This document shows positions 2,907 through 37,470 of a stretch of 64,000 nucleotides of DNA, piece after piece. A program made the position numbers and the translations under genes. The notes under the pieces are model-generated. The model worked only from the letters and a program-made list of their open reading frames with translations. It was not told the origin of the DNA and did no database searches. This DNA comes from Lachnospiraceae bacterium (GTDB taxonomy: Bacteria; Bacillota; Clostridia; Lachnospirales; Lachnospiraceae): NCBI GenBank assembly GCA_022776445.1, contig JALFHZ010000236.1, positions 11,266 through 75,265 on the forward strand, read 5' to 3'. Positions within the stretch are counted from its first letter, which is position 1. Each line of letters opens with the position of its first letter.

Positions 2907-3899
2907 ATGAATACAAGACAATTATCCTATATCATAACCATCGCAGAACAGGGCAGCCTCTCTGCTGCCGCCAGAACCCTAAGTGTCTCTCAGCCTGCCC
3001 TCAGCAAATACCTGGCAGAGCTGGAGGAGGAACTGGGAGTAGAACTGTTTCTCCGTCACAAAAAGCAGCTGTTCCCTACTCCTGCCGGAAAAATCTACCT
3101 CAAAGCCGCCCAGCGCATTTTATCTGTGAAAAACCAGACCTATCAGGCAATCGCTGCACTTTCCGGAGATGTAGAACAAACCATCACGCTGGGCGTCACT
3201 CCACTGCGCGGTGCCATCTCCATCGCCCGTATTTTTCCTCTGTTCCGCCAACGTTTTCCCAACGTTCGCATCACATTCAAAGAACAATATCAGGATGATA
3301 TCCGGCGCTCCATCATCAATCAAACCGCAGATCTTGGTCTTGGCACCTGCATCGAGCTGGAAGAGCCCGAGATCCGGCACATTGCGGCATTTCAGGAAGA
3401 CCTGGTACTCTTTGTCCCGTCCTTCCATCCTCTGGCATCCATGGCCAGTCCTGACCCTGCGTTCACACCCCCGGTTGATATCCGACTGTTTTCGGATACC
3501 CCGTTTCTGATCGGCGGAAAGAGCAGCACGATTCGCCAGCTTTCAGAAATCATATTTCAGCAAAACAATATGCATCCTACCATCGTATTCGAATCAGACA
3601 ACAATCTGGTGCTGAAGCACATGGTAAAGAACGGGGCCGGAGTCTGTCTTTTGTCTCGTTCTCACGGAGAAATTAACAGCAACCTGGTCTACTTCTCCTT
3701 AAAACCCAATTATCGCACCAACCTGACTGTCATGGTTGCCAAAGACCGTGTTTTGACCGAAGCAGAACGATACCTGGTTGCTTTGAATTTCTCCATGCAG
3801 TTTAACGAACCCAATTATATCTATCATCCGAATCCGGAAGCCGCACAGATTCTGAAAGAATTTGGATTTTCGAAAACATCAAGACCGACGATTTATTAA
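2907..3899 (+). CDS. LysR-family regulator (first of a tandem pair), with C-terminal extension
   Basis: LTTR HTH (GSLSAAARTLSVSQPALSKYLAELEEELGVELF); divergent from tctCBA; start at MNTRQL. Confidence 0.93.
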   Translation: MNTRQLSYIITIAEQGSLSAAARTLSVSQPALSKYLAELEEELGVELFLRHKKQLFPTPAGKIYLKAAQRILSVKNQTYQAIAALSGDVEQTITLGVTPLRGAISIARIFPLFRQRFPNVRITFKEQYQDDIRRSIINQTADLGLGTCIELEEPEIRHIAAFQEDLVLFVPSFHPLASMASPDPAFTPPVDIRLFSDTPFLIGGKSSTIRQLSEIIFQQNNMHPTIVFESDNNLVLKHMVKNGAGVCLLSRSHGEINSNLVYFSLKPNYRTNLTVMVAKDRVLTEAERYLVALNFSMQFNEPNYIYHPNPEAAQILKEFGFSKTSRPTIY

Positions 3900-3919
3900 A
3901 TAAGGAAGGGAATGAAAAC

Positions 3920-4804
3920 TTGGATACCAAGATTATCGAATATGTCATCGCAATTGCAGAAGAAAAAAGCCTCAGCAAAGCTGCCGAGCGCCTTTATCTG
4001 ACTCAACCAGCTTTAAGCCAGCGGCTCAAAAAACTGGAAGAAGAACTGGGCACTCCGCTTTTTACCCGGGATACTGACGGCCTGACTATCACAGATGCAG
4101 GGCGCATCTACGTAAACGGCGGACGCTCCGTCCTGCAGATCCGGCAGGATGCATTAAAACAACTCACTTCTATGAGCCGCAACAACAAAAAAGTACTGCG
4201 TTTCGGCTGCGCCACATCTACTGCGCTGGAATGTGTCCCGGAGTTTCGCGCGGCTTATCCCGATATCGACCTGGTTACCCGCCGATGCAATACCACGCAA
4301 GCCAAGGAAGATCTGATCATGGGACGTATGGACATCGCCGTGCTGCTGACCAACTCGCTCCAGCATACCGCTCTCGAATTTCTCCCCCTGTCTGAAGGCG
4401 AATTCCTTCTGTCAGTACCGGAACACCACCCGGCACTTCCGGAAGCCGGTACCTCAGAACTGCATCCGGAAGCACTGCGGGATGATTATTTTATCCTCAG
4501 CCCGGCCCCATCCTTTTCCAGAGATGTAGAAGATTCTGCCCTGAAATCTCTGGGTATTCAGCCACGTATACTCTGTGAGATCAACGACAATGTGTCACGA
4601 AGATATATGCTGAACCGGGGACTTGGATGCGGCTTTCTGCCAGACTACACACTTCGGCAGGAAGACACATTTCACACCTTTTCCCTGCATCCGAAACAGA
4701 CCTTTTATGTGGCTGCCGCCTATTCCAGAAGTGCCACTTTGTCAGAACCTATGAAGGGATTGCTGAAGCTGCTTCTGAATCTGTTTGACAAGCACAAATC
4801 TTAA
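3920..4804 (+). CDS. LysR-family regulator (second of the tandem pair)
   Basis: KSLSKAAERLYLTQPALSQRLKKLEEELG HTH; TTG start with AAGGAAGG RBS, 20 nt after the previous LysR. Confidence 0.93.
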   Translation: MDTKIIEYVIAIAEEKSLSKAAERLYLTQPALSQRLKKLEEELGTPLFTRDTDGLTITDAGRIYVNGGRSVLQIRQDALKQLTSMSRNNKKVLRFGCATSTALECVPEFRAAYPDIDLVTRRCNTTQAKEDLIMGRMDIAVLLTNSLQHTALEFLPLSEGEFLLSVPEHHPALPEAGTSELHPEALRDDYFILSPAPSFSRDVEDSALKSLGIQPRILCEINDNVSRRYMLNRGLGCGFLPDYTLRQEDTFHTFSLHPKQTFYVAAAYSRSATLSEPMKGLLKLLLNLFDKHKS

Positions 4805-4824
4805 AGCATTCGTCTGTTACCTGA

Positions 4825-6102
4825 TCAGTACAGCGGATACAGAATATGTGCTGCCGCTGCACAGGACAGAATCGCCAGAACCATATAAGGGAATGTAAAT
4901 TTCAGCACTTTCACCGGGTTATAACCTCCCGCCGCAAAACATACTGCGCACTCTCCGGAACCAGATGGAAAACCTACTGCAAACATATTGGCAGTTCCGA
5001 TGATCAGTACAATTCCTCTCGGATCCCAGCCACCCGCAAGGCACACAGAAGCAGCAATCGGAATCAGCACCGTCTGCGTTGCCATATTCGATAAGAACGT
5101 TGTCATAACCACGGTTGCCATAGAGAAAATCAGCATTACCATAAAGGAACTTGGATTTGCGCCAAGCAATTGCAGAATCAAATCGCCAATCGCATTGCCG
5201 GCTCCCGATTTACCCAATGCATCTGCTACAACCAGTACACCAGCCAGCATCCAGGTCATATCGGCAGTCATGCCTTTTACTGCATCTGGAACACTCAAAA
5301 TGCCGGTATAGATCAAAATCAGAACACCCAGAGCAGGTGCCAGATAGAGCAGATTTCCAGTCCATTTATTCAGAATCATCAGAAGCATTACCAGCACAAA
5401 TACGCCATAGACAATTTTTTCCTGTGCCGATGATAAAAGATCCGCCTTTTTCGCTTCTTTCAGAGCTGACTGATTAATTTCTGCACCCTTTGGCATTAAT
5501 TTCCAGGCAGCCAGGCAGTAAATTGTCAGCACAACGATCGGAATCAATGCAAATAGAAACGGATCCATCATCGTCAGATGATACTGCGGATCTGTGATAA
5601 TTCCCTCATACAGACCATTCAGTGTTGCAAAAGTTGCAGCTCCCATGCCAATCGGGAATTTAAATTTCCATGCAACCAGAATTCCCAGAAGCGGAAGGAG
5701 AAGACGGTTTGCTGTAATTTCACCGCTGTTATCCAGAGTCATCAGAAATACAACCAGAATCGTCAAAGCCGCAGTCGAAGGAATAAACTGTGCGAATACA
5801 GCGCCCACCAGATAAAAGGAGATAATCAGAAGCATACCCCTCTTACCTTTTAAAGTATTCAGAATCCCACTGATTTTCTGCACCAGACTGGTTCTCGTCA
5901 GCACAGAACTTAAAGCCAGCATCGGTGCAATCAGAACCACAATCTTATTTCCAAATCCGCTGAACGCTGTCTGGATATCTACAATTCCACAAATTGCAAG
6001 TACCAGACAACAGGTCATGGTTGTTACTCCAAACGGTACTTTATGCCAGATAAACATCACCATCATAAACAGGGTGACTGCCAATACAATATACATTTCC
6101 AT
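4825..6102 (-). CDS. SLC13/DASS (ion-transporter superfamily) carboxylate permease
   Basis: About 11-12 TM helices; TTFLSNMATQTVLIPIA and AAGGYNPVKVLKF motifs typical of SLC13/CitMHS permeases. Confidence 0.78.
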   Translation of the reverse strand: MEMYIVLAVTLFMMVMFIWHKVPFGVTTMTCCLVLAICGIVDIQTAFSGFGNKIVVLIAPMLALSSVLTRTSLVQKISGILNTLKGKRGMLLIISFYLVGAVFAQFIPSTAALTILVVFLMTLDNSGEITANRLLLPLLGILVAWKFKFPIGMGAATFATLNGLYEGIITDPQYHLTMMDPFLFALIPIVVLTIYCLAAWKLMPKGAEINQSALKEAKKADLLSSAQEKIVYGVFVLVMLLMILNKWTGNLLYLAPALGVLILIYTGILSVPDAVKGMTADMTWMLAGVLVVADALGKSGAGNAIGDLILQLLGANPSSFMVMLIFSMATVVMTTFLSNMATQTVLIPIAASVCLAGGWDPRGIVLIIGTANMFAVGFPSGSGECAVCFAAGGYNPVKVLKFTFPYMVLAILSCAAAAHILYPLY

Positions 6103-6138
6103 TTTTCCTCTCCTTTGTAGTTGTTTTGCTGCAGGTTC

Positions 6139-6975
6139 CTATTTCATCAAAGCCTTTACCTGTCTGACCCGCTCTTTTATGAAATCCGCCCAGATCGTTT
6201 CATCAAGATAAGGCTGATTCTCGTGTGTGTACTGACCGGCACGATCAATAATTTCAATCTGATTCGGATGACTCGGCAGCGCGATATCCACATGTATTTC
6301 CTGAAGCTTCTCTGCATCTTTCAGGAAGCGATCCCGGTAAACCGGAGTCAAATACTTACTGGATGCATAATAATTGTCATTCATCGTATTGGCACCGACT
6401 CCGCCATGCATTCCAATAACATAGCGTGCTCCATTTGCAGGGTTTTCCTCTTCCCAGAAAAAGCTGGTGCATCCCGGTGTATGTCCCGGAGTCAGCATAC
6501 TTCGAACCGCAATATTGCCCAAAACTACCGGCTTGTCATCGGAATAAAACTGATCCGGCTCAAACATCTGCGGATGAGAATCCTTGTCCAGTACCATGGT
6601 TTCATCCGGACATGCCTTCATAAATTCCCAGTCTTCTTTTGACATGTAAAGCTCCGCGCCGGTGAGCTCTTTCATCGCCTTTGCTGCCCCGCAGTGATCG
6701 AAATGCGCGTGGCTGAGCAGGATTTTTTTAATATTCTCCGGCTTATATCCCAATCGGTAAATGGAATCCACCAACAAATACATACTTTCCGGAATTGCCG
6801 TATCGATCAAAATTAAACCGTCTCCGGTATCAATCAGATAACATCCAACCCATGTCTGTCCTGCCACATACCAGGTCTGCGGACTTACCTGAAACGGTTT
6901 CACCGAAGCCGTCCATGGACGGTAAGCCAGAGTTGCTACCGGATCCTTAAGCGGTAGTGTACAACGAAATGCCAT
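6139..6975 (-). CDS. Metallo-beta-lactamase-fold hydrolase, subclass B3-like, no signal peptide
   Basis: HAHFDH, PGHTPG and LPSHP zinc ligands; PFQV..TWYV...YLIDTGDGLILID N-terminal strands as in B3 enzymes. Confidence 0.85.
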   Translation of the reverse strand: MAFRCTLPLKDPVATLAYRPWTASVKPFQVSPQTWYVAGQTWVGCYLIDTGDGLILIDTAIPESMYLLVDSIYRLGYKPENIKKILLSHAHFDHCGAAKAMKELTGAELYMSKEDWEFMKACPDETMVLDKDSHPQMFEPDQFYSDDKPVVLGNIAVRSMLTPGHTPGCTSFFWEEENPANGARYVIGMHGGVGANTMNDNYYASSKYLTPVYRDRFLKDAEKLQEIHVDIALPSHPNQIEIIDRAGQYTHENQPYLDETIWADFIKERVRQVKALMK

Positions 6976-7117
6976 GATCTTGTCCTCCTCATATCAACAC
7001 ATATTAGAAAATTTGCTTGTGTTCTTTTATTAATACAATTATAATATAGGTATCACCTTAGTTCAACTTATGCATTTTTATATTTGAACTAATTATTTTT
7101 AATAGGAGGACATTCCT

Positions 7118-8038
7118 ATGGATCTGCATCAGATCGAATATATGATCGCCATTGAACAGGAGCAGAGTATATCCCGGGCCGCTGAAAAACTGTTTATTAC
7201 CCAATCCGCTCTGAATCAGCAGCTTTTAAAGCTGGAAAAAGAACTGGGACTGGCTTTATTTGAGCGACGCAACCGTACCATGATTCCCACATTTGCCGGA
7301 CGGATTTATCTGGCTACTGCTCACCAGATGGTCGATATGAAACAGGAAACCTACAAAATTCTTCATGAAATTTCCAAAGAAACCGCCGGTGAAATCTCCG
7401 TGGCCTTTTCTCCGGAACAGGGTGCCCGTATGTTCTCCTCCATACTTCCGGAATTCCACAGACAATACCCCAACATCACTTTTCGTATTCAGGAAGTTCA
7501 TGTCAAAAAAATGGAACAGCTTCTGCTTCAGCATGAAACCACGATTGCATTTATGTCCCGTACAGAACACTACTGGAATCCGGATCTGGAATATATTGAA
7601 ATGAAAAAGGAAAAACTGGTGCTCGGTCTTCCCGCAAGCCACCCACTGGCTTATCTGGCTGGAGAACGCAGTTGGGAGACGCTGCCCGGCATCGACCTGC
7701 GCCTTTTACGCAACGAACAATTCGTTCTGCTTTCCAAATCCACAAGGTTTCGCAGCATGATTGACCATGCCTTTTCCCATGCCGGCTTTCACCCCAAAGT
7801 TCTTTTCGAATCCGGCAGAACCATGACTGCTGTCAACATTGTAAAAGGCCAGGTTGCCCCGGCTTTCTTTCCTCAGTCTTATGCAGAACCCAATGAGCAG
7901 ATCGTCTATTTTTCCCTTATTCCGGAAGAAACCTGGATGCTCTGCATCAGCTACCTGAAAGGCAGTTATCTGAGCAAACCAGAAAAATATTTTATGGATC
8001 TTGCGATTCAATATATGAATCAGGGAATCCATAAATAA
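7118..8038 (+). CDS. LysR-family regulator
   Basis: SISRAAEKLFITQSALNQQLLKLEKELG; divergent from the MBL-SLC13 operon. Confidence 0.94.
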   Translation: MDLHQIEYMIAIEQEQSISRAAEKLFITQSALNQQLLKLEKELGLALFERRNRTMIPTFAGRIYLATAHQMVDMKQETYKILHEISKETAGEISVAFSPEQGARMFSSILPEFHRQYPNITFRIQEVHVKKMEQLLLQHETTIAFMSRTEHYWNPDLEYIEMKKEKLVLGLPASHPLAYLAGERSWETLPGIDLRLLRNEQFVLLSKSTRFRSMIDHAFSHAGFHPKVLFESGRTMTAVNIVKGQVAPAFFPQSYAEPNEQIVYFSLIPEETWMLCISYLKGSYLSKPEKYFMDLAIQYMNQGIHK

Positions 8039-8041
8039 AAA

Positions 8042-8092
8042 TATCCTGTGGAGAACCATTTGCTTTCCAAATATATGGTATTCCACAGGATA
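8042..8092. terminator. Hairpin/terminator between convergent genes
   Basis: TATCCTGTGGA...TCCACAGGATA inverted repeat right after the LysR stop. Confidence 0.6.
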
Positions 8093-8190
8093 CTTAAACC
8101 GCATCAGACTCAAATATTTTTCATAATTTGAGTCTCCGGCAATCTCCAGGTCAAAAAACAAATTTCACGGCATGCGTTAATTTTTCGAGA

Positions 8191-8562
8191 TTACGCCTTC
8201 CTTACATGCTTCGTCACAATCACATTCGCGCCCAGGCCCAGTACATTCTCAATCACAACCTGTCCGGCAAAAACCGGAGCCTCCAGCGACTGCTTCCGGA
8301 TCTCTGCCATCACATCAAAAATGCGATTTTTCGGAATCATATGATCCAGTCGGACACTAACAAGGGGCAGCTCTCCGCCTTTTACCAGAACAGAAGTCGC
8401 AATATTGCGCTGCGGATCGGTCATTTCCTGAACTGCATATTCCTTTCCCTTCGGGCAGGTATTGCCGGTTACCAGGATTTTCTCTGCACCTGCATCAGCC
8501 CCGGTTTTCACGGTCAGATCACATCCCATCGGACACATGATACATGTCATTGCTCTTACCAT
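8191..8562 (-). CDS. DUF1667-type small Cys-rich (Fe-S/metal-binding) subunit
   Basis: MVRAMTCIMCPMGC...GNTCPKGKEYA..E..DP.R...TSV. True start is ATG 8562, overlapping the upstream stop; the longer ORF-track N-terminus is spurious. Confidence 0.85.
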   Translation of the reverse strand: MVRAMTCIMCPMGCDLTVKTGADAGAEKILVTGNTCPKGKEYAVQEMTDPQRNIATSVLVKGGELPLVSVRLDHMIPKNRIFDVMAEIRKQSLEAPVFAGQVVIENVLGLGANVIVTKHVRKA

Positions 8563-11251: not shown

Positions 11252-11265
11252 TCCCCTTTCGTACC

Positions 11266-12570: not shown

Positions 12571-12613
12571 ATAGCCTCCTCGTCATAACAGTTCATCATG
12601 TAATATCTCATGC

Positions 12614-12645: not shown

Positions 12646-12663
12646 CTTGATTTTTAATTTTTC

Positions 12664-16629: not shown

Positions 16630-16641
16630 ATTCTCTCTCCT

Positions 16642-22176: not shown

Positions 22177-23118
22177 ATGGATGTTAAATATTTAAAATAT
22201 ATTCTTGCAATCGCAGAGCGCAAAAACATGACAAAGGCAGCAGATGAACTGTTTGTATCACAGTCTTCCCTGAGCCAGTATCTGTCCCGTCTGGAGCAGG
22301 AGATCGGTACACCGCTGTTTTTCCGTACTAAAGGCGAGCTGACACTCACCCCTGCCGGAGAGCTTTATGTGGAAGCTGCCCGGAAGGTCGTCCGGATCCA
22401 GCACGATCTGTATCAGAATATTGCAAGTCTGGACCGGCGCGGCAAAATCAGCGTAGGTGTCACTTCCAATTTCGGTCTGCGCATGCTCGCGGAGATCGTA
22501 CCGCTGTTCAAGCAGACCTATCCGAAGGTAGCGATTGAGATTTCAGAAGTGGGGCTTCCCGCCCTGAAAAAAATGCTTTCCGATGAAATGATAGATCTTG
22601 GTATTGCTTCTGCTGTCAACACAGCTCCCTTTGATGACCAGGCGCACATTCTGCGCCGGGAAGAGGTATTCTTCGCCATTCCGAAGACGCACCCTTATAC
22701 GTTCAAAAACACAGGGGATTCCCTGACAATTGATGAGCTGGTAACGAATTTCCGCACAGACAATTTTCTTCTGTCCAAGCGGGGTTCTTCTCTTCGCGGA
22801 CTGTCCGATCAGGTGTTTGATTCCTGTGATTTTACACCCAGCGCTTTCTGCGAGACCAACAATATTACCGCAACCCGGAATATGGTCGCCAGCGGAGTTG
22901 GAGTCGCTTTTATTGCAGAATCCTGCTCCGTTAATCGGGATTGTATTCGCTACTACTCCCTTTCACCGGCGCTGTACCGGCTGAATGTCATTTTCACACG
23001 CAAAAACTGGGTACAGAACGGACCGGAGATTACTTTTTTCTCCTATCTGACCCATTACTTTGAGAAGCATACCGAGACTCCGTATCTGGCAGAAAATTAC
23101 ACAGGGAACTTCCATTAG
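22177..23118 (+). CDS. LysR-family regulator (first of second tandem pair)
   Basis: NMTKAADELFVSQSSLSQYLSRLEQEIG HTH; divergent from the gudD paralogue. Confidence 0.93.
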   Translation: MDVKYLKYILAIAERKNMTKAADELFVSQSSLSQYLSRLEQEIGTPLFFRTKGELTLTPAGELYVEAARKVVRIQHDLYQNIASLDRRGKISVGVTSNFGLRMLAEIVPLFKQTYPKVAIEISEVGLPALKKMLSDEMIDLGIASAVNTAPFDDQAHILRREEVFFAIPKTHPYTFKNTGDSLTIDELVTNFRTDNFLLSKRGSSLRGLSDQVFDSCDFTPSAFCETNNITATRNMVASGVGVAFIAESCSVNRDCIRYYSLSPALYRLNVIFTRKNWVQNGPEITFFSYLTHYFEKHTETPYLAENYTGNFH

Positions 23119-23160: not shown

Positions 23161-24063
23161 ATGGATACCAAACAGATCGAATATATCATCAAAATATCAG
23201 AAGAAAACAACATTACGCATGCGGCAGAGAAACTGTTTATTACGCAGTCTGCGCTCAACCAGCAGCTTCTGAAGCTGGAAAAGGAGCTGGGCACTCCGCT
23301 GTTTCACCGTTCCCGCACCAACTGGCGTCTGACGGAAGCCGGTGAAGTGTATGTACAGAATGCCCGTGAGATTCTGAACATCAAAAAAAATACCTACGAC
23401 CGCATTCATGACATTGCGGAACACAAAAAGGGAGTTTTGAAAATCGGAATCACCCCCGGCCGCGGCATCGACATGTTCAGCGCTGTTTACCCTGCTTTCC
23501 ATAAGGATTACCCGGATATTCTGGTGGAGCCTGTAGAGAAAGGTGTCAGAGAGCTGCAGAACATGATCTCGGACGGACAGATCGATATCTCATTTCTGAC
23601 CTTAAGTCCGCAGGACCGCACCAATGACGAATATATTCCTCTGCTTGAGGAAGAGATTCTTCTGGTAATCCCCAAAGGGCACCCCCTTGGTGCTGAGGCT
23701 GCACCTCCCGGGCAGCCTTTTGCCATCATGGACCTCAGTAGGCTCATCTACGAACCTTTCGTCCTCATGAATAAGGGGTCTACCATGCGAAGCCTGTCTG
23801 ACAAAATCTTTGAGGAAGCCGGTTTCAAACCCAATATTCTGTTCGAAACACGGAACAACGTAACGGTCCTGACGATGATCCGCACCAATCTCTGCTGCGG
23901 TTTGATTCCGCACTACTACGTCAGGAGAGATTTTTCCGACATGGCCTGCTTTTCCCTGCCCGATCATCCACACTGGGAGGTCGCAGCCAGCTATAAAAAG
24001 GGCGGGTATCTCAGCCGACCGGCACGGGAATTTATTGAATTGGCGAAAAATTACTGGAGCTGA
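23161..24063 (+). CDS. LysR-family regulator (second of second tandem pair)
   Basis: NITHAAEKLFITQSALNQQLLKLEKELG; start MDTKQI with AGGAG RBS. Confidence 0.93.
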   Translation: MDTKQIEYIIKISEENNITHAAEKLFITQSALNQQLLKLEKELGTPLFHRSRTNWRLTEAGEVYVQNAREILNIKKNTYDRIHDIAEHKKGVLKIGITPGRGIDMFSAVYPAFHKDYPDILVEPVEKGVRELQNMISDGQIDISFLTLSPQDRTNDEYIPLLEEEILLVIPKGHPLGAEAAPPGQPFAIMDLSRLIYEPFVLMNKGSTMRSLSDKIFEEAGFKPNILFETRNNVTVLTMIRTNLCCGLIPHYYVRRDFSDMACFSLPDHPHWEVAASYKKGGYLSRPAREFIELAKNYWS

Positions 24064-25876: not shown

Positions 25877-26782
25877 ATGGATGTCAAACAGATTGAATAC
25901 ATTGTAAAAATAGCCGATGAGCACAGCATTACCCGTGCCGCAGAAAAACTGTTCATCACCCAGTCTGCCCTGAACCAGCAGCTTCTTCGTCTGGAAAAGG
26001 ATCTCGGCGCACCGTTGTTTTTCCGAAGCAAGATGGATATGCAGCCCACTCCTGTGGGACATGTTTATCTGGAATACGCACGGGAAATCTTGCGTCTCAG
26101 GCAGAAAGCCTACAACATCATCAGTGATATGGCCCAGACCCAGAAGGGGCATCTGTCCATGGGCTTCACACCGGGAAGAGGCATCGAAATGTTTACCCAT
26201 ATCTATCCCGCCTTTCATCAGGCATTTCCGGGTGTGATTATCGAGCCAAAAGAACTGAGCGTACATCGACAGCAGCAGATGATTGCCCGCGGTGACCTGG
26301 ATATCGGTTTTCTGACACTGAATACACGGCAGCGAACTTCGGATGAATATATTGTTCTCGGAAGTGAAGAGATCGTCATGGCGGTTCCTGCAATCCACCC
26401 GGTATCCCGCTATGCTACACCGGCAGGAGAACCGTTTGCGGTTCTGGATATTGCTATGCTCCGACACGAGCCGTTCGTCCTGATGTATAAGGAATCCACC
26501 ATCCGTTCCACCATCGATGATATCTTTCGCACCTCCGGCTTCGTGCCCAATGTCCTGTTTGAGACATCGAGCAACAGTGCAATCATCTCCATGATCCAGG
26601 CACGCCTGTGCTGCGGTGTGGTTCCATACTTCTACGTAAAAGATCATCCAAAAGATATCTGCTGTTTTTCCTTTGAAAATCATCCAACCTGGGATATTGC
26701 AGCATGTTATCGGAAGGATGCCTACCTAAGCCATGCTGCGCAATATCTGATTGAACTGGTACGTGATTTCTGGTTCGGATGA
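25877..26782 (+). CDS. LysR-family regulator
   Basis: SITRAAEKLFITQSALNQQLLRLEKDLG; close paralogue of 23161-24063 (TPGRGI.MF...YPAFH). Confidence 0.94.
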   Translation: MDVKQIEYIVKIADEHSITRAAEKLFITQSALNQQLLRLEKDLGAPLFFRSKMDMQPTPVGHVYLEYAREILRLRQKAYNIISDMAQTQKGHLSMGFTPGRGIEMFTHIYPAFHQAFPGVIIEPKELSVHRQQQMIARGDLDIGFLTLNTRQRTSDEYIVLGSEEIVMAVPAIHPVSRYATPAGEPFAVLDIAMLRHEPFVLMYKESTIRSTIDDIFRTSGFVPNVLFETSSNSAIISMIQARLCCGVVPYFYVKDHPKDICCFSFENHPTWDIAACYRKDAYLSHAAQYLIELVRDFWFG

Positions 26783-27653: not shown

Positions 27654-27656
27654 GCT

Positions 27657-28766: not shown

Positions 28767-28782
28767 ATCGGTTTCCTCCTTG

Positions 28783-30885
28783 TCAGATACCGGCAAAGTC
28801 CGCCACCCGGTTCAGGATGCCTGCGGCCTCCCCCATGGTAACGAGACGTTCCGGTTCAAAGCAGCCGTCGGGCTCCAGTTTCATAAATCCGAAATAGAGT
28901 GCCCGCGCCACGTTGGTGCCATAATTGTTGCTCACCTGATCAACATCTGCACAGACCGGCATGGTACTGGATGCATTGCGGTAATTCACGCCGCAGGCCT
29001 GCATCGCCACAGTTGCCATCTCCTGACGCGTCACGTAACCATTCGGCATGGAGCCTTTCTGTGCATCCTGCGCAAGGAAACCGCTGCCAACCGCAATGCG
29101 CATTGCTTCGTCATATCCCTGTGCTCCTCTTTCCGCTCCGAATCGCTTTCCAGCTGCCAGCGGCAGCAGCATTTTCGCCAGCTGTCCTCTGGTGATCGGT
29201 TCACTGTCGATAATGGTATCGTTCTCATCGAGCATCCCGCGACAAAGCAGTCGAAGACGATCGTATTTCCCGTCCATCAAAATTTCGTGCGTTTCCGTTT
29301 TGCAGCTGTATTTCTGCTCCGCAAGTACACGATAACTGCTGCTTGTCTCTGCATTGTCATGTTGATCCACAGCTGTCACACGTACATATGCGGCCTGTTT
29401 CGGAATCACCAGATGTTCGCCATGGCCCGCATCCGTCCACGCTTCACCGTCCACGGATGTTTCCCAGTTAAAATGACATGCATCATGACCTCCGCAATAC
29501 TCGGCAGATGCATGTATCTGTGCTCCCTCCATCGGTACGCCCAGAATCCGGACGCTGCACGGACGCGGGAAATTCTTTCCGTTAATCTCGATTGCTTCCA
29601 GCACCGGTTCTTTCCAGTTCATACTCCGCATCGGCTGTCTGACACCATCGATCCGGATATTGCGCAGGACCAGGCCGGTGATCGGTACCGCATCAAACGC
29701 CTCCAGGAAAATCCCATAGTCCCCTCCATGAGCCGTTATATTTTCGATGGTAATATTACGGAACACCGGCAGATCATTGCCATTGGGTCCGTCTTCGTAC
29801 ATCATGGTGCCATGCACCGCTGCGCCATGGACGTGATCCATCACACTGTCTGCCAGAATCACATCCTCTACCTTGCCGCCGCGTCGTGCATTGGTCTTCA
29901 GACGCAGCGCATAGGTCAGATTCGGACTGCTGAAACGATTATTCATCGCCAGCACCCTTCGAATTCCGCCGCTCATCTCACTGCCGAGCGCCACGCCGCC
30001 ATGTCCGTCTGCAAATTCATTGTGCTCAATCAGCACATCTTCACAGGGAACCCTGGCGATTCTTCCGTCCCGGTCCCTGCCTGATTTCAGACTGATACAG
30101 TCATCTCCCGTATCGAAACGGCAGTTTACAATATGCACGCCGCTGCAGCTTTCCGGATCACAGCCATCGTTGTTGGCACCGTGACTGGACATGGTAACAC
30201 GATCCACCGTCAGACTTTTGCACATCACAGGATTCAGCTGCCACATCGGACTGTTGTGCAGGGTAAAGCCCTGCAGCAGCACCCGCTCGCAGCGGATCGT
30301 CTGCACAAAATTCGGTCTCAGATAATGTCCCGGCCCGAACACACGCTGTTCCACCGGTACTCCGTCCAGGTTCATCTGGCGAAGCGCTTTGCGGTCCTCC
30401 AGCTGCAGATCCTGTTTATCTGCAGACCATGCGTTTTCCACCTGATGATGCCAGTTCCACCAGTGCTGTGCGTCGGCACCGCCGTCCAGCACGCCCTCTC
30501 CGGTCAGAGCAATGTCATGGGCATCACAGGCATAAATCAGAGGGCTGAAATTATAGCACGGAGTTGCTTCCCAATGTGAAAACACCGTTGGATAATGAAG
30601 CTCCGGATTTTCATTGACAAAAGCGAGAACCGTGTCTTTGCACTGGAGGTGCAGCTCCACTTTGCTTTTCAAGTGCAGTGCGCCGGTCCGGTAACGTCCG
30701 GCCGGAAGGATCAGCTTTCCGCCGCCCTGACTGCTCACCCGGTCAATCGCCTGCTGCAACCGCTCCGTCTGAACCGCATCGCTGTCCGGATTGATTCCGA
30801 ACTGCGCGGCATGATATTCCCGGGCCGGAATCATCGGTTTTTCGATTCGTTTCAGGATTGTTTCCTTCAGTTGTAATTTATCCAT
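28783..30885 (-). CDS. GH28 polygalacturonase with C-terminal SLH-like repeats
   Basis: NNDG, GDDC, GHGG, GSEMSGG and RLKT catalytic motifs; PITRGQLA, YVTRQEMA and F.P...VT..EA SLH-like repeats; no signal peptide. Confidence 0.88.
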   Translation of the reverse strand: MDKLQLKETILKRIEKPMIPAREYHAAQFGINPDSDAVQTERLQQAIDRVSSQGGGKLILPAGRYRTGALHLKSKVELHLQCKDTVLAFVNENPELHYPTVFSHWEATPCYNFSPLIYACDAHDIALTGEGVLDGGADAQHWWNWHHQVENAWSADKQDLQLEDRKALRQMNLDGVPVEQRVFGPGHYLRPNFVQTIRCERVLLQGFTLHNSPMWQLNPVMCKSLTVDRVTMSSHGANNDGCDPESCSGVHIVNCRFDTGDDCISLKSGRDRDGRIARVPCEDVLIEHNEFADGHGGVALGSEMSGGIRRVLAMNNRFSSPNLTYALRLKTNARRGGKVEDVILADSVMDHVHGAAVHGTMMYEDGPNGNDLPVFRNITIENITAHGGDYGIFLEAFDAVPITGLVLRNIRIDGVRQPMRSMNWKEPVLEAIEINGKNFPRPCSVRILGVPMEGAQIHASAEYCGGHDACHFNWETSVDGEAWTDAGHGEHLVIPKQAAYVRVTAVDQHDNAETSSSYRVLAEQKYSCKTETHEILMDGKYDRLRLLCRGMLDENDTIIDSEPITRGQLAKMLLPLAAGKRFGAERGAQGYDEAMRIAVGSGFLAQDAQKGSMPNGYVTRQEMATVAMQACGVNYRNASSTMPVCADVDQVSNNYGTNVARALYFGFMKLEPDGCFEPERLVTMGEAAGILNRVADFAGI

Positions 30886-30915
30886 GAGCAATCTCCCGAT
30901 TTTTACATATTAATC

Positions 30916-32019: not shown

Positions 32020-33538
32020 TTACTTCACTCTGTCCGGCAGCTGCCGCAGCAGACGCTGCACGTTTCTGTTTCAGATGATCTGAAAGGAATGGCCATACCA
32101 CACAGAATACAGAGACCAGAAGCAGTGCCGCAGACAGCGGACGGGTAAAGAACTCCGCATAACTGCCGTGTGCATAGCTGATACCCTGGCGGAAGTAACG
32201 CTCCAGCTTACTGGACAGAATAAATGCCAGTACCAGTGGAGAAGTCGGGAGTCCTGCCATACTCATAAAGATTGCCAGCAGACACAGAGCTACCATCACA
32301 TAAATGTTGAACATGGTATTGGAAATGCCATATCCACCGATGTAGCAGATTACCAGAATCACTGTGTACAGATAATGATACGGAACCTTCAGAATATATG
32401 GGAACCAGCGTTTGGTAATAATCTGAACGATGTAGGTTACAATTGCGGATACCATGACACAGGCAAAAATCAGCATTGCCAGATCCGGCTGCTCGGTCAT
32501 AAACAGAGGCCCCGCCTGCAGACCATGAATGGTCAGACCTGCAATCAGCATTGCAGTGATACCGTCACCAGGAATGCCCAACGCCATCATCGGAATCAGC
32601 GCACCGCCCAGGGAAGCGTTGTTTGCTGTCTCAGAAGCCCATACACCGGCAGGATTGCCTTTGCCGAAGGACTCCGGGTTTTTGCTGATGCTCTTGGCAT
32701 AACCATACGCTACCATGTTGGAAATACCGGAACCCATGCCCGGCAGAAAACCGATCCAGAGACCTGCTGCAAATGCAAACGCAATTGTCCTGATGTTTTC
32801 AAAAATATCCTTAAAACTAACGCCAAGGCCTTTCATGTTCACGACATCTGCTTCCGGCATCTTTGCTTCGCCGCGCGCAGAATCACGGATGATCTGGCAC
32901 ATTGCGAACATACCCAGCATCTGTGCTACGGTACTGATGCCAGAGGTCAGATAAACATTGCCGAACGTAAAACGAACCGCACCGTTGATGGGATCCATAC
33001 CGATGCATCCCATCAGCAGACCGATGCCGGCAGCCATAATTCCTTTGAAAATATTGCCTTTTGACAAGGAAGCAATCAGAGTAATTGCACAGAAGCACAG
33101 CGAGAAATACTCCCACGGTCCCAGATGCAGTGCAAATTCTGCAATCACCGGAGACAAAACCGTTGCCAGTGCAACGGAACCAACGGTACCAATAAAGGAT
33201 GCGGTCATACCGATGCCCAGCGCCTTACCCGCCTGACCGTTCTTGGTCATCGGGAAACCATCGAAGCAGGTTGCGATCGCGGAAGAAGAACCAGGGATAC
33301 CAATCAGTACCGCGGAAATAAAGGTTCCGGATACGCCGCCGATCCAGATTGCAAGCAGCAGTACGAAAGAGGTCTCCGTGGAAAGACCAAAGGTAACCGG
33401 CAGCAGCAGAGCAATACCAAGAGTTGCGGAAAGTCCCGGAATCGCACCAAATACGATGCCAAGGGATACCATTGCAACGATCAAAAGCAGATTGATCGGC
33501 TGCAGACAGATCATCAACGCATTTATATATTCAGCCAT
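32009..33538 (-). CDS. tctA: TTT permease TctA
   Basis: GAIPGL, GIPGS..AIATCFDGFPM, GFLPGMGSG and ETANNA...IP..ALGIPGD. Confidence 0.95.
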   Translation of the reverse strand: MAEYINALMICLQPINLLLIVAMVSLGIVFGAIPGLSATLGIALLLPVTFGLSTETSFVLLLAIWIGGVSGTFISAVLIGIPGSSSAIATCFDGFPMTKNGQAGKALGIGMTASFIGTVGSVALATVLSPVIAEFALHLGPWEYFSLCFCAITLIASLSKGNIFKGIMAAGIGLLMGCIGMDPINGAVRFTFGNVYLTSGISTVAQMLGMFAMCQIIRDSARGEAKMPEADVVNMKGLGVSFKDIFENIRTIAFAFAAGLWIGFLPGMGSGISNMVAYGYAKSISKNPESFGKGNPAGVWASETANNASLGGALIPMMALGIPGDGITAMLIAGLTIHGLQAGPLFMTEQPDLAMLIFACVMVSAIVTYIVQIITKRWFPYILKVPYHYLYTVILVICYIGGYGISNTMFNIYVMVALCLLAIFMSMAGLPTSPLVLAFILSSKLERYFRQGISYAHGSYAEFFTRPLSAALLLVSVFCVVWPFLSDHLKQKRAASAAAAAGQSEVNDD

Positions 33539-33553
33539 GGTTCTTGCCCCTCC

Positions 33554-34021
33554 TTATTCAAACAATGCGCCTGCCGGCAGCTTCACCTGGAAGCCATAGA
33601 CAAACATCGCATAAAGACCTGCGGTTACCAGAATGGAAATAATGATTGTCGGAACCGTTTTTACCTCACTGTTGCCCTTCAGATCATGAATGAATGCATA
33701 GGTAGCAAACGGAGTCGTAATCAGAAATCCCAGATAAGTCATTGCAATTGCATAGATAATCAGCATCAGATAGCTCTTCGTAATCTTCCGTGCACCGCCC
33801 TTCGGGAAGTATGGTTTCTCCTCTTTTGCACGATCCATGTAACCCTTAATGATCAGCGCAATGGAGCTCATTGCAATCAGTGTAATCGCGACATACGGAA
33901 GCAGACGCGGACCAGGTTCCAGAAGTTTGGCCGGCTGCTTAACCGACTGGGTCATGAACAGAAAGAATGCGCAGCCAATGAGACCCACAATTCCGGTGAC
34001 GGTATCTCTTCGCAGTTTCAT
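33554..34021 (-). CDS. tctB: TTT small subunit TctB
   Basis: EPGPRLLP and FQVKLPAG motifs; start MKLRRD. Confidence 0.88.
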   Translation of the reverse strand: MKLRRDTVTGIVGLIGCAFFLFMTQSVKQPAKLLEPGPRLLPYVAITLIAMSSIALIIKGYMDRAKEEKPYFPKGGARKITKSYLMLIIYAIAMTYLGFLITTPFATYAFIHDLKGNSEVKTVPTIIISILVTAGLYAMFVYGFQVKLPAGALFE

Positions 34022-34133
34022 AAGTAATCCCCTTTCTTTTAAAATGTCCCGGGATTTTTTCTCCCGGGACACGCGATTTTCTTTTTCCTGTAACCGTTTC
34101 GGACGGATACGTATACAAACACAGCTTCAGAAA

Positions 34134-35228
34134 TTACTCCTGAACAAACATATCCAGATTTTTAGCAATCTCTACATCCTGTGCAAACTCTTCTTCCTGA
34201 AGCTTTCTGGATTCTTCCAGATCATGCCAGCCAGGAATGTTGCCGATGCTTGCAATACCGGCATTCACAGTCTCATCCTCAACAACAGCCTTCATTGCTG
34301 CATTCATGTTCTTTACCATGGTTTCATCCATGCCAGCCGGTCCCAGCAGATAGTGGAATACAGACATGGTACAGTTGTCAAAGCCCTGCTCCTGAAGAGT
34401 CTTGTAGTTATCCGGCAGTTCTTCCGGATATTCGGAAATGGTGGTTCCGTCAGAAGATACGGTACCGATTACTTTCAGTTTTCCGGCCTTCTCATACTCC
34501 AGCGCATTGCCGACACCTACAACACCGATATCAATGAAACCGCCGGCCAGGTTAGTCAGACGGTCAGACTCCGATGCACACTCCACAGAGTTCAGCTCAA
34601 TGCCGGTTGCCGCTGTCAGCTTGCCAAAGAGGAAGGTATTTGCACCCGCTGCCGGCATACCTGCATTCAGTTCGCCCGGATGTGCCTTTGCATATTCTAC
34701 AAAGCCTGCAAAGTCATCATATGGCGCATCAGCCGGTACTGCCAGAGTGGAAAATCCGTTATCCTGCAGACATGCAATCACAGTGAAATCCTTCAGCGGA
34801 TTTACTTCTGCGTTGCCGGTAATATACTGAATATTTAAAGCAGAGGTAGCAACTGTCAATGTCGTACCATCCGGTTTTGCGCTTGCCACGGTCTGGTGTC
34901 CTACGGTATTGCTGTCGTAGTTGGTTACGGTAGTCTTCAAGCCATAGATACGGTTCAGACCTTCGCTGTAGTAACGGATACCCAGATCGGAACCGCCGCC
35001 TGCCTTACCCGGAACTACCAGAGTAATGGTCTCACCTTTCGGAAATCCAATATCATCGGCTGCTGCTTCCGCTGCTGCGGTTGTCTCACCTGCGGCTGCC
35101 TCTGCCTTGGTCTCTGCCTGAGCTGCTGTTGTAGCCGCGGTCTCAGTCTTGCTTCCGCACGCAGTCATGCCCATGACAGCAACAGCTGCAACACCGGATA
35201 ATAAGATACGATAAATACTTTTTCTCAT
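34134..35228 (-). CDS. tctC: TTT substrate-binding lipoprotein TctC
   Basis: Lipobox MTAC, VVPGKAGGGSD, KPDGTTL; most similar in this window to the TctC at 1602-2705. Confidence 0.92.
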   Translation of the reverse strand: MRKSIYRILLSGVAAVAVMGMTACGSKTETAATTAAQAETKAEAAAGETTAAAEAAADDIGFPKGETITLVVPGKAGGGSDLGIRYYSEGLNRIYGLKTTVTNYDSNTVGHQTVASAKPDGTTLTVATSALNIQYITGNAEVNPLKDFTVIACLQDNGFSTLAVPADAPYDDFAGFVEYAKAHPGELNAGMPAAGANTFLFGKLTAATGIELNSVECASESDRLTNLAGGFIDIGVVGVGNALEYEKAGKLKVIGTVSSDGTTISEYPEELPDNYKTLQEQGFDNCTMSVFHYLLGPAGMDETMVKNMNAAMKAVVEDETVNAGIASIGNIPGWHDLEESRKLQEEEFAQDVEIAKNLDMFVQE

Positions 35229-35541
35229 AACGCTTCTCTCCTTTTATTATTGTCCGTGCAGAGTGCCCTCTGCCTTATTATTAAGAACCGGTTCTCAACA
35301 CTCTTAACGAAAAAGCTGAAACTCTCAAATGGTTTTTGTATATTCTGTCTTTATTTCAACCCCTCTTGTGTTTACAAATTGATTATAGCGAATTCACCGG
35401 AATTTTACAAAATCCAATTGTTTATATCTTTCATATCATTTTAGTTATAGTTGTTGACTTCTGTACCGGAGTTTGATAAAACACCATTAGAAAGATATCT
35501 GACTGATACCGTCTGATCTTACAAGAAAGGAGTCCGCTATC

Positions 35542-37470
35542 ATGAATACACGTCAGCTTTATTATCTTGTCACAATTTCCGATTCCGGCAGCCTTTCCCG
35601 TGCTGCCCAGATACTCGGGATCTCACAGCCGGCATTGAGTAAATTTCTGGCAGAATACGAGGATGATCTGGGATTTCTGATTTTTCTCCGCTACCACAGG
35701 CAGCTGACGCCTACCGCAGTCGGCCGCTATGTAATCCAGTGCGCGCAGCGGATTCTGGACGAACAGACACGCATGCTGCAGACACTGCGTGCTGCCACGG
35801 ACAGCAACCACGCCCGCATCCGGCTTGCAACAGCGCCGAACCGCGGCGCCATCATTTACAGTCGGATTTATAAACAGTTCTCTCACCGATATCCGGATAT
35901 CTCTCTGACTCTGACTGAACTGTATGCTTCCGACCAGCCGGGAGCGATTCAGCACGGGCAGATCGATCTTGCCATCGGTTCCGGAAACATTTCCGACAAG
36001 GTCACTGATATACCGATCGCCTATGAAGAACTTCTGGTTTCCCTTCCGGTCTCACATCCGCTGGCACTTGCAGACCGGATCCGGCTTTCCGATCTGCGGG
36101 ATACCCCGTTCGTACTGCAGGGACCGCGCCACAGCATCCGGATTCTGGCAGAGGAACTGTTTGAAGAAGCCGGTTTCAATCCGGTTGTCACGTTCGAATC
36201 CAACGATGTTCTTCTGGTAGATTCCATGATGCATCAGGCTGTTGGCGTCGGTCTGGTTTCGCAGGCTCATGTATTTCCCTGCGATGAACTTGTTTATCGT
36301 TCCCTGGATCCACCAATCCACCAGACACTGCATCTGCGCTATCCGCTTGGGCACACACTGACAGAGCCGGAACGTTATCTGGCAGGACTCCTGGCCCGTG
36401 AACGGCTGACGGACCCGCGTTATCAGGCAATCAATTCACCAGAGGTAGAAGAGCTGCTGCGCATTGTGGATCAGGATCAGAACGGTATTTCTGACACAAC
36501 TGTTTCGGAACATGTCACCGTCGGTGCTGCTTCTGCACGTTACAAAGCGCCGGAACTCAACCTGAACTCTCAGCTCCTCAAATATATCATCGCCATCGTG
36601 GATGAAAAGAGCCTGACCAAAGCAGCGGAGAAATTCTACCTGACGCAGCCGGCACTCTCCCGCCATCTACGCAATGCGGAGGAAATGCTCTGCGCGCATC
36701 TGTTTACACGGGTACACAACCGTCTGCAGCCCACCAATGCCGGAAAAATTTTTGTCAATTTCGCAAGAAATATGCTGCAGATCGAGACAGAAATGAGCGA
36801 ACAGCTTCACGATTACCGCATCGGTCACGGCGGCGGTATTTATCTCCAATGTGATCCGGCCCTGACACCGCGTATTCAGGAATGTGCAGCAAAGGAATTT
36901 CACCGTCTGCACCCGGATATCAACCTTTCTCTTGCAGAAGGCACACAGGAGGAAGCGCAGGAAGCTCTGCTCAATGCTTCCGCTGATTATGGCCTTTACT
37001 TTTCCTGCGAAAAGGAACACCCTATCCTTTCCAGCCGGATTCTGGCAGAAAGCGAGCTGGTATACTGTTTTTCATCGAAACCACCGGCCGACCGACCGGC
37101 AGATTCCGAACCGGTCGGCCCCATGGCTCCGCGCCCGGTTATGCTGGCACCGGTTAACAGCGCCCTTCGTGTGGAGCAGGACCGACTTCTGTCCGAAATC
37201 TTTGACTCACCGCCTCCGATCGTCTGTGAAGCACAGATCCATATTCTGCAGCTTTTAGCTGCCAAGGGCGCTGCAGACACCATCCTGCCCGTCCATGATC
37301 TGCCACAGGAAGCATTGCCGCGATGCAGATCCTTTTTCCAGCCTCAGCGTTGGTTTCTTCTGCTGGCAAACCACCCCGGCCGCAATCTTCCGCCATCCGT
37401 CAGGGATCTTGTACGTCTGCTGGACAGCACATTTGAGGCATTTTTTTCTGCAGCTGTTCAGGAGAATTAA
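35542..37470 (+). CDS. Tandem double LysR fusion protein (two HTH plus two effector domains)
   Basis: 642 aa with HTH1 GSLSRAAQILGISQPALSKFL and HTH2 KSLTKAAEKFYLTQPALSRHL, in one reading frame with no internal stop. Confidence 0.92.
   Translation: MNTRQLYYLVTISDSGSLSRAAQILGISQPALSKFLAEYEDDLGFLIFLRYHRQLTPTAVGRYVIQCAQRILDEQTRMLQTLRAATDSNHARIRLATAPNRGAIIYSRIYKQFSHRYPDISLTLTELYASDQPGAIQHGQIDLAIGSGNISDKVTDIPIAYEELLVSLPVSHPLALADRIRLSDLRDTPFVLQGPRHSIRILAEELFEEAGFNPVVTFESNDVLLVDSMMHQAVGVGLVSQAHVFPCDELVYRSLDPPIHQTLHLRYPLGHTLTEPERYLAGLLARERLTDPRYQAINSPEVEELLRIVDQDQNGISDTTVSEHVTVGAASARYKAPELNLNSQLLKYIIAIVDEKSLTKAAEKFYLTQPALSRHLRNAEEMLCAHLFTRVHNRLQPTNAGKIFVNFARNMLQIETEMSEQLHDYRIGHGGGIYLQCDPALTPRIQECAAKEFHRLHPDINLSLAEGTQEEAQEALLNASADYGLYFSCEKEHPILSSRILAESELVYCFSSKPPADRPADSEPVGPMAPRPVMLAPVNSALRVEQDRLLSEIFDSPPPIVCEAQIHILQLLAAKGAADTILPVHDLPQEALPRCRSFFQPQRWFLLLANHPGRNLPPSVRDLVRLLDSTFEAFFSAAVQEN

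What the first reader, a model, noticed from the sequence alone, without database searches (positions are those of the whole stretch)
2907..37470. Rosetta-stone pair: split LysR tandem (2907-4804) and its natural fusion (35542-37470) suggest a heteromeric LTTR
The N-half of the 642-aa protein matches LysR 2907: MNTRQL.Y..TI...GSLS.AA..L..SQPALSK.LAE, P.RGAI, FES, and the unusual tail LTE.ERYL......P.Y.....PE...L. The C-half matches LysR 3920: KSL.KAAE..YLTQPALS. Both loci sit divergently from a tctC-tctB-tctA operon, and those two TctCs resemble each other (NYD..VG, C.SE.D.LTN.A.G). LTTRs normally act as homotetramers whose protomers adopt two conformations. One genome carrying the same pair both split and fused suggests an obligate two-subunit LTTR, possibly sensing two ligands as an AND gate. 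The similarities are seen; the heteromer is inference.
Basis: partly seen in the sequence, partly recalled or inferred. Interest (0 to 1): 0.8.

Follow-up and report, generated by a model that had tools for sequence, protein, structure and literature searches.

The report
Paired and fused two-subunit LysR regulators
This gut Clostridia genome carries a conserved pair of different LysR-type regulators, encoded side by side or fused into one 642-residue protein, which suggests a two-subunit version of a regulator family only known to work as four identical copies.

Summary
2907-3899 ("A", 330 aa) and 3920-4804 ("B", 294 aa) are two different LysR-type regulators (LTTRs). 35542-37470 is one 642-aa protein with two complete LTTR modules, and its halves match A and B respectively. 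Both loci face a tctCBA transporter operon.

- A and B are two separate LTTR lineages. In 36 loci from other Clostridia, A is directly followed by B, with overlapping stop and start codons in 21.
- The A and B trees mirror each other.
- The fusion arose once and is kept in more than 120 protein clusters. Its nearest unfused relative is a split pair in another genus, not the window's pair.
- The genome holds a third split pair on contig C65.
- In at least three or four lineages B has shrunk to its DNA-binding domain plus linker helix (84-94 aa).
- In the fused family B's sensor domain evolves much faster than A's.

Best reading: A and B form one hetero-oligomeric regulator, with A as the main sensor and B supplying the second DNA-binding head. 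This rests on comparative inference, not biochemistry. The two-ligand AND gate is not supported in general.

I found no paper describing this. The scan noted an unrelated fused double LTTR on other DNA. Novelty: new variant of a known kind.

The parts
1..1002 (-). tctA (5' part; runs off the window), last gene seen of the operon facing the split pair
   Evidence: Pfam TctA, E 4e-99
1014..1538 (-). tctB
   Evidence: Pfam TctB, E 6e-22
1602..2705 (-). tctC, lipoprotein-type solute receptor and first gene of the divergent operon
   Evidence: Pfam TctC; 34% identical to the TctC at 34134-35228
2706..2906 (.). Control region of the split locus. Back-to-back promoter-like sites share their -35 region: + strand 2847-2875 (TTGACA-17-TATGAT) and - strand 2853-2825 (TTGTCA-17-TATAAT). 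A conserved block at 2853-2895 holds an imperfect dyad (perfect TTATAT-N3-ATATAA in orthologues) and AGTTATA at 2885-2891.
   Evidence: Promoter scan; alignment of 11 orthologous intergenic regions; sequence
2907..3899 (+). LTTR subunit A (330 aa): HTH, linker helix, sensor domain and an A-specific C-terminal tail of about 40 aa
   Evidence: Pfam; A clade support 100; tail conserved in split and fused members
3920..4804 (+). LTTR subunit B (294 aa, TTG start, 20 nt after the stop of A)
   Evidence: Pfam; B clade; best match of the B-family profile, 407 bits; start-site context
28783..30891 (-). GH28 glycoside hydrolase with SLH domain, distal gene of the operon facing the fused regulator
   Evidence: Pfam; same gene order in fused-family loci L099, L101, L102
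30916..32019 (-). Abhydrolase_7 / glucuronoyl-esterase-like hydrolase
   Evidence: Pfam; conserved in L099 and L101
32009..33538 (-). tctA of the second operon
   Evidence: Pfam TctA, E 9e-136
33554..34072 (-). tctB of the second operon
   Evidence: Pfam TctB
34134..35228 (-). tctC of the second operon
   Evidence: Pfam TctC; 81% identical orthologue next to the fused gene of G145
35229..35541 (.). Control region of the fused locus. A promoter-like site for tctC lies on the - strand at 35410-35382 (TTGTAA-17-TATAAT). A conserved block sits directly upstream of its -35 at 35411-35453, with AGTTATA at 35443-35449.
   Evidence: Promoter scan; alignment of six fused-family intergenic regions; sequence
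35542..36489 (+). Fused regulator, A-type half (residues 1-316), including the tail strand 294-296 and helix 300-315
   Evidence: AF2 model
36490..36558 (+). Fused regulator, flexible linker (residues 317-339)
   Evidence: pLDDT below 50 for residues 316-337; 20% mean pairwise identity and lengths of 17-71 residues across the family
36559..37470 (+). Fused regulator, B-type half (residues 340-642 plus stop codon)
   Evidence: B-family profile 362 bits

Best explanation
A and B are two specialised paralogous LysR-type subunits that work together as one hetero-oligomeric regulator. The likely form is A2B2, or a dimer of the fused chain, giving the usual four DNA-binding heads. This regulator controls the divergent carboxylate-uptake and degradation operon and its own promoter. 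A carries the well-conserved sensor domain and a family-specific C-terminal tail. B's indispensable part is its winged-helix domain plus linker helix, which I infer pairs with A's linker helix to make a mixed DNA-binding head. B's sensor domain is accessory, and it is retained, degenerating or lost depending on the lineage.

Shown: the gene architecture, the phylogeny, the conservation pattern and the shared operator block. Inferred: physical association, stoichiometry, the pairing interface, and activation of tctCBA by a carboxylate ligand.
For: 1. Adjacency: in 36 loci from other genomes an A-type gene is directly followed by a B-type gene, always in the order A then B. Stop and start overlap by 1-20 nt in 21 loci, 25 have an overlap or a gap of at most 4 nt, and the largest gap is 137 nt.
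2. Two separate lineages: the A clan has support 100, and all B against A plus other LTTRs has 99.
3. Mirrored subclades: the A and B subclades match each other, although single genomes carry several subtypes (this genome has three sets; Clostridium sp. chh4-2 and MCC353 have two each). The pair was therefore duplicated as a unit.
4. One fusion: the fused N-halves and C-halves are each monophyletic (96 and 98), with the same split sister pair (G154) in both halves. The fused form is kept in more than 120 clusters.
5. B reduced to HTH plus linker helix: this occurs as separate 84-94-aa genes (L006, L038/L039, L093-L098) and as a natural 443-aa fusion of A with the reduced B (L003). The reduced form is a family of 22 clusters, most members 86-94 aa at 59-79% identity, and the three I looked up sit right behind a tailed A-type gene. 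The state needs at least four changes on the A tree.
6. Domain conservation in the fused family: DBD_A 0.71, RD_A 0.77, DBD_B 0.71, RD_B 0.44, linker 0.20.
7. B-centred check: all six B-profile hits of 300 bits or more in the own genome plus 200 other genera are adjacent to or fused with an A. The next best hit scores 233 bits.
8. Shared operator element: AGTTATA, in the sense of the regulator gene, occurs in 19 of 32 control regions against 1.6 expected. It lies 32-33 nt upstream of the tctC -35 in both window loci.
Against: No experiment or structure shows that A binds B. The AF2 model of the fused chain gives confident domains but only pTM 0.55, so it does not fix how the halves pack. Both A and B have complete, high-scoring HTH and sensor domains in the window's split pair, so each could in principle form its own homo-oligomer. 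One close orthologue of A (L013) has no B downstream, although its tctC is also truncated, so that locus looks decayed. The operator contains a near-perfect dyad, which symmetric homodimeric heads could also read. The loci surveyed are related to each other, so the counts overstate independence.
Confidence: 0.6

Rival explanations
1. A and B are two independent homo-oligomeric LTTRs that are merely co-transcribed. They bind separate sites in the same control region, for example one activator and one repressor, or sensors of two related substrates, in the manner of the BenM/CatM paralogues. The fusion is a tolerated tether.
For: Both proteins have complete HTH and sensor domains. The control region holds more than two half-site-like elements. 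B's sensor domain is well conserved in the window's own subfamily (0.59, against 0.65 for A).
Against: This does not explain why B repeatedly keeps only its HTH and linker helix while staying glued to A. It does not explain why no B-type gene was found away from an A, the strict A-then-B order with overlapping codons, or the retention of a 1:1 covalent fusion in more than 120 clusters.
Confidence: 0.2
2. B is a modulator rather than a co-subunit of an active complex. Its DNA-binding head would compete for A's operator, or would cap A's linker helix, setting a threshold or shutting the system off (an anti-activator).
For: DBD-only forms of B exist and are conserved. Truncated regulators that keep only a DNA-binding or dimerisation module are a known way to antagonise a full-length partner (general knowledge, not tested here).
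Against: A permanent 1:1 fusion of an activator to its own antagonist, kept across a large family, is hard to rationalise. Translational coupling gives a fixed ratio rather than a regulated one.
Confidence: 0.12
3. The 642-aa frame is an assembly or frameshift artefact, or a decaying pseudogene that joins two neighbouring genes.
For: The genome is a fragmented, 88%-complete assembly of 246 contigs.
Against: Intact full-length homologues occur in more than 120 clusters from many samples, including isolate genomes. Both halves are conserved, and the fold is confident (mean pLDDT 84).
Confidence: 0.01

Closest known systems
Canonical homotetrameric LysR-type regulators with full-length structures (BenM, CatM, CbnR, OxyR, CysB, CcmR)
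   Same: Same domains and fold. Pfam finds HTH_1 plus LysR_substrate. The best sequence matches among solved structures are BenM/CatM, and each half of the fused model matches full-length LTTR chains. The genes are divergent from their target operon, with an AT-rich dyad upstream of the target -35.
   Different: Known LTTRs are built from one gene product. Here two distinct lineages are always encoded together, fused, or with one of them reduced to its DNA-binding head. A carries an extra C-terminal strand-plus-helix tail.
BenM/CatM-type pairs of paralogous LTTRs acting on overlapping promoters
   Same: Two paralogous LTTRs bear on one pathway.
   Different: From my own knowledge, not tested here: BenM and CatM are encoded at separate places, each works alone as a homotetramer, and they are not known fused. 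The A/B pair is adjacent, translationally coupled, co-diverging and fused in one clade.
Another covalently fused double LTTR noted by this scan (about 603 aa, beside ergothioneine-breakdown genes; note e1-2570128)
   Same: Two complete LTTR modules in one chain, conserved across species, with a non-symmetric DNA box reported.
   Different: It lies in a different genome and context. I did not test whether it is related. That note does not mention a split state, a co-diverging gene pair or DBD-only partners.
Rosetta-stone (gene-fusion) inference of interacting proteins
   Same: Two separate proteins are homologous to the two parts of a single fused protein. Here this is reinforced by conserved adjacency.
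   Different: The fused protein is a paralogue, not the orthologue, of the window's split pair. The orthologous comparison is the fused clade against the split pair of G154.

Membership tests
LysR-type transcriptional regulators (LTTR) | N-terminal winged helix-turn-helix domain (Pfam HTH_1) | tested here: met
   A 74.6 bits, B 78.9 bits, fused protein two stretches at 114 bits; cut-off 26.6
LysR-type transcriptional regulators (LTTR) | C-terminal effector-binding domain (Pfam LysR_substrate) | tested here: met
   A 93 bits, B 97.7 bits, fused protein two stretches at 133 bits. The mini-B variants in other genomes lack it.
LysR-type transcriptional regulators (LTTR) | Divergent transcription from the regulated operon, with a dyad or T-N11-A-type box upstream of the target -35 | tested here: inconclusive
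   The divergent arrangement is met in both loci. A conserved dyad (TTATAT-N3-ATATAA) and AGTTATA lie upstream of the predicted tctC -35, but binding was not shown.
LysR-type transcriptional regulators (LTTR) | Homo-oligomer (usually a homotetramer) of one gene product | not testable with these tools
   The genomic evidence argues for a hetero-oligomer. No oligomeric state could be measured.
Rosetta-stone fusion pair | Separate proteins map to non-overlapping parts of one fused protein | tested here: met
   A matches residues 1-307 and B matches residues 341-590 of the fused protein. Trees agree.
Rosetta-stone fusion pair | Split and fused forms are orthologous, meaning the same pair in two states | tested here: not met
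   The window's split pair and the fused gene belong to different old subclades. The split sister of the fused clade is G154/L004.
Conserved co-translated operon partners | Adjacency, fixed order and overlapping or near-abutting stop and start across many genomes | tested here: met
   36 loci, always A then B, 21 overlapping, 25 with an overlap or a gap of at most 4 nt
BenM/CatM-type independent dual regulators | Each paralogue works alone as a homo-oligomer and is encoded separately | not tested
   Function alone cannot be tested here. Separate encoding is contradicted by the constant adjacency.

The most novel reading that the evidence does not exclude
A/B LTTRs are an obligate heteromeric class in which the two conformational roles of an ordinary LTTR tetramer have been divided between two genes. 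A senses the ligand. B is essentially a second DNA-reading head that pairs with A through the linker helices. That would explain why B can lose its sensor domain (mini-B) or be fused to A without loss of function.
Probability: 0.35. Interest if true: 0.8.

Novelty: new variant of a known kind. Interest (0 to 1): 0.62.

Why it matters
LTTRs are the largest family of bacterial transcription factors. Every mechanistic model of them, including the sliding-dimer model with compact and extended protomers, assumes four identical chains. A natural system with two different chains would let each protomer's role be assigned genetically. This family also offers a single-chain version and versions in which one chain is only a DNA-binding head.

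It also matters for annotation. These genes are all labelled simply 'LysR family transcriptional regulator', and the 90-aa mini-B genes look like fragments. If the reading is right, they should be treated as units. The systems control uptake and breakdown of carboxylates, and probably of pectin-derived uronates, in gut Clostridia.

Tried and rejected
- Complex prediction of A with B, each given as an alignment, returned no verdict. The score was 0.58, but a control with chain 1 replaced by an unrelated protein scored 0.48. It counts neither for nor against binding.
- The AF2 model of the fused chain gave good domains, but pTM was 0.55 and no coordinates or contacts were available. I could not tell whether the halves meet through linker helices or through sensor domains. 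The fold search only returned ordinary full-length LTTR chains, each covering one half.
- The search for related loci with a broad A alignment failed for lack of a conserved stretch. A narrower alignment worked, so the locus survey is biased towards the window's split subfamily.
- Six literature searches found no paper on heteromeric, tandem or fused LTTRs. One search was badly posed and returned unrelated papers. The library lacks most subscription journals, so the absence is weak.
- Plain similarity cannot recognise B-type proteins of other subfamilies. The window's B scores higher against a non-B LTTR of the same genome than against the fused C-half. I therefore used trees and a family profile instead.
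- Reading the operator as a classical T-N11-A box was attempted by eye. The region is very AT-rich and overlaps promoter hexamers, so I report only the conserved blocks and the AGTTATA enrichment.
- The artefact or pseudogene reading of the fused frame was rejected.
Full report
**What is in the window**

- 2907-3899 encodes a 330-aa LysR-type regulator, called A here.
- 3920-4804 encodes a 294-aa LysR-type regulator, called B. It starts with TTG, 20 nt after A's stop codon and behind an AAGGAAGGG ribosome-binding site.
- 35542-37470 encodes a 642-aa protein in which Pfam finds two HTH_1 and two LysR_substrate domains.

The N-half of the long protein matches A best (36% identity, 170 bits, against 63 bits for the other half). 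The C-half matches B best (33%, 109 bits, against 85 bits). A and B are only 26% identical to each other.

Both loci are divergent from tctC-tctB-tctA genes, and the two TctC proteins are 34% identical. The operon facing the fused gene continues with an Abhydrolase_7 / glucuronoyl-esterase-like gene and a GH28 hydrolase.

**The fused frame is real**

A search restricted to proteins of 353-1124 residues returned 316 clusters. The best 120 are full-length proteins of about 640 aa at 55-99% identity, carrying both domain types. They come from many metagenomes and from isolates such as Clostridium sp. AN503.

The AF2 model built on 49 homologues has mean pLDDT 84.
- Both halves fold as ordinary LTTRs, and each half matches full-length OxyR, CcmR, CysB, BenM or CbnR chains.
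- The A-specific tail is confidently predicted as a strand (294-296) and a helix (300-315).
- Residues 316-337 are disordered.
- pTM is only 0.55, so the mutual arrangement of the halves is not fixed by the model.

**Two lineages, also within this genome**

The genome has 33 good LTTR HTH matches. In a maximum-likelihood tree of all of them, with the fused protein cut in two, the fused N-half groups with A and with a third protein on contig C65 (support 99/98). The fused C-half groups with B and with the gene that follows on C65 (91/95).

That third set (L012) is again A then B, here overlapping by 11 nt, and again divergent from a tctC gene. The genome therefore holds three A/B sets, two split and one fused.

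**Survey of other genomes**

Proteins like A form a coherent family of 320-340 residues. Almost all carry the same C-terminal tail.

I fetched 80 loci from species genomes with an A alignment and classified every open frame against reference sets.
- In 36 loci a B-type LTTR directly follows the A-type gene on the same strand, always in the order A then B.
- The stop of A and the start of B overlap by 1-20 nt in 21 loci. Twenty-five have an overlap or a gap of at most 4 nt. The largest gap is 137 nt.
- Most loci are divergent from a tctCBA operon.
- The carriers are Lachnospiraceae, Oscillospiraceae and unclassified Clostridia. A few contigs carry Prevotella, Selenomonadales or Bacteroidaceae labels. 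Two of them (L015, L018) group closely with a Lacrimispora or an Oscillospiraceae locus and look like binning errors.
- The module is rare. With the fused protein as query, only 7 of 201 genera of the family had a match at E 1e-30 or better.

**Phylogeny of the halves**

I built a tree of 120 sequences: 38 split A, 29 split B, 21 fused proteins cut in two, and 10 other LTTRs of this genome.
- All A-type sequences fall on one side of a branch with support 100. All B-type sequences separate from A plus the other LTTRs with support 99.
- The fused N-halves are monophyletic (96), and so are the fused C-halves (98).
- In both halves the sister is the split pair of genome G154 (L004). Its two genes overlap by ATGA.
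- The fusion therefore happened once, from a split ancestor. The fused gene of the window is an old paralogue of the window's split pair, not its fused counterpart.

The A and B subclades mirror each other. This holds for the window's split type (19 A, 17 B), the C65 type (5 and 5) and a third type (L040, L041, L046, L047). Single genomes carry several types, so the mirroring reflects duplication of the pair as a unit rather than species phylogeny.

A B-centred control gave the same picture. A profile of the B family was searched in 200 other genera plus the own genome. It gave six hits of 300 bits or more, all adjacent to or fused with an A. The next best hit scored 233 bits. The profile was built from B proteins found next to A proteins, so very divergent orphan B proteins could be missed.

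**B reduced to a DNA-binding head**

Four loci lacked a full B.
- In L006, and in L038/L039 (Gemmiger and Allofournierella), an intact open frame of about 80-89 residues follows A. It comprises the HTH and the linker helix and then stops.
- In L003 the same truncated B is fused to A in a 443-aa protein, which is the closest relative of the fused clade.
- In L013 there is no B at all. Its tctC is also truncated, so that locus looks decayed.

The short form is a family of its own. I found 22 clusters, most of the closer ones 86-94 aa long at 59-79% identity, on contigs of up to 342 kb. I looked up three of them. Each sits 5-40 nt behind a 320-325-aa LTTR that is A-type by best match and has the tail. 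Each is divergent from a carboxylate transporter operon. On a tree of A proteins the mini-B state needs at least four changes on well-supported branches.

Domain-wise conservation agrees with this, as mean pairwise identity:

| Family | DBD_A | RD_A | DBD_B | RD_B | Linker |
|---|---|---|---|---|---|
| Fused | 0.71 | 0.77 | 0.71 | 0.44 | 0.20 (17-71 residues long) |
| Window's split subfamily | 0.73 | 0.65 | 0.82 | 0.59 | n/a |

The DNA-binding head and linker helix of B are what is always kept. Its sensor domain is optional.

**Control regions**

In the split locus a promoter-like site for A (2847-2875) and one for tctC (2853-2825, with TG extension) share their -35 region. The 45 bp to the right are almost invariant among 11 orthologous loci. 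They include the dyad TTATAT-N3-ATATAA (imperfect in the window) and AGTTATA.

In the fused locus the best promoter-like site for tctC is 35410-35382. A block conserved in the fused family lies directly upstream of its -35.

AGTTATA lies 32-33 nt upstream of the tctC -35 hexamer in both loci. In the sense of the regulator gene it occurs in 19 of 32 control regions of all subfamilies, against 1.6 expected from shuffles (maximum 6 in 500). The related loci are not independent, and the regions are AT-rich. I take this as a shared operator element at the position where LTTRs usually bind, and no more than that.

**Likely function of the targets**

Fused-family genes in four other assemblies face tctCBA followed by Abhydrolase_7, GH28 and often GH88. 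One of them faces GH28-GH88 without a transporter. This points to pectin- or uronate-derived substrates. It agrees with another first-reader note on this window (e1-5521564). The inducer is unknown.

**Mechanism**

I commit to a hetero-oligomer, A2B2 or a dimer of the fused chain, at about 0.6. Five observations support it:
- the fixed order and translational coupling of the two genes;
- their co-divergence;
- a single fusion that has been retained;
- the absence of orphan B-type genes in the sample;
- the repeated reduction of B to HTH plus linker helix while it stays attached to A.

In solved LTTRs the linker helix is what dimerises the DNA-binding heads (established knowledge from CbnR and BenM). 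From this I infer that B's head pairs with A's head, and that A's sensor domains form the core. This interface is inference.

The rivals are two independent homo-oligomers on one promoter (0.2) and B acting as an antagonist (0.12). They explain the constant 1:1 linkage and the covalent fusion less well. An artefact is excluded.

**Comparison with the literature and with this scan**

I found no paper on heteromeric, tandem or fused LTTRs in six searches. The library is incomplete. The scan has noted a fused double LTTR of about 603 aa beside ergothioneine genes in another genome (e1-2570128, not tested here), so single-chain double LTTRs are not unique to this family.

What is new here is the whole series in one family: a co-diverging split pair, a single-origin fusion, and a partner reduced to a DNA-binding head. 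I class it as a new variant of a known kind.

Noticed in passing
L012 (genome contig C65, outside the window): 1212-2216 + and 2206-3081 +: A third A/B pair of the same genome. The two genes overlap by 11 nt and are divergent from a tctC gene (1-1077, minus strand). The contig is only 3.5 kb long.
   Followed up: yes
window 22177-23118 + and 23161-24063 +; also 7118-8038 + and 25877-26782 +: Four more LTTR genes lie in the window. Two of them form another same-strand tandem with a 42-nt gap. They belong to neither the A nor the B clade. Relatives of the 7118 and 23161 types lie next to A/B pairs in other genomes. In L037 an A, a degenerate B and a 23161-type gene stand three in a row.
   Followed up: partly
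L006:1323-1589 -, L038:5993-6235 +, L093-L098 at about 4001-4276 +: Genes of 84-94 aa encode only the HTH and linker helix of a B-type LTTR. They always lie behind a tailed A-type gene. In databases they would look like gene fragments.
   Followed up: yes
L003:1501-2784 + (genome G063): A natural 443-aa fusion of a full A with only the HTH and linker helix of B. It is the sister of the full double-LTTR clade.
   Followed up: partly
window 37530-38813 -: A PD-(D/E)XK-family transposase gene lies directly downstream of, and convergent with, the fused regulator.
   Followed up: no
L013 (same contig as L005): The closest orthologue of the window's A (69% identity) has no B downstream, and its tctC lacks the N-terminal third. 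It looks like a decaying locus or a mis-assembled MAG contig.
   Followed up: partly
L015, L018, L074: Contigs labelled Prevotella, Selenomonadales and Bacteroidaceae. L015 and L018 carry A/B loci that group closely with those of a Lacrimispora (L026) and an Oscillospiraceae MAG (L029). These are probably binning errors in the MAGs.
   Followed up: no
window 4825-6975 -: Convergent with B are a CitMHS-type carboxylate permease and a metallo-beta-lactamase-fold gene. A similar CitMHS, esterase and Lactamase_B set is the target operon of an A plus mini-B pair in L097.
   Followed up: no
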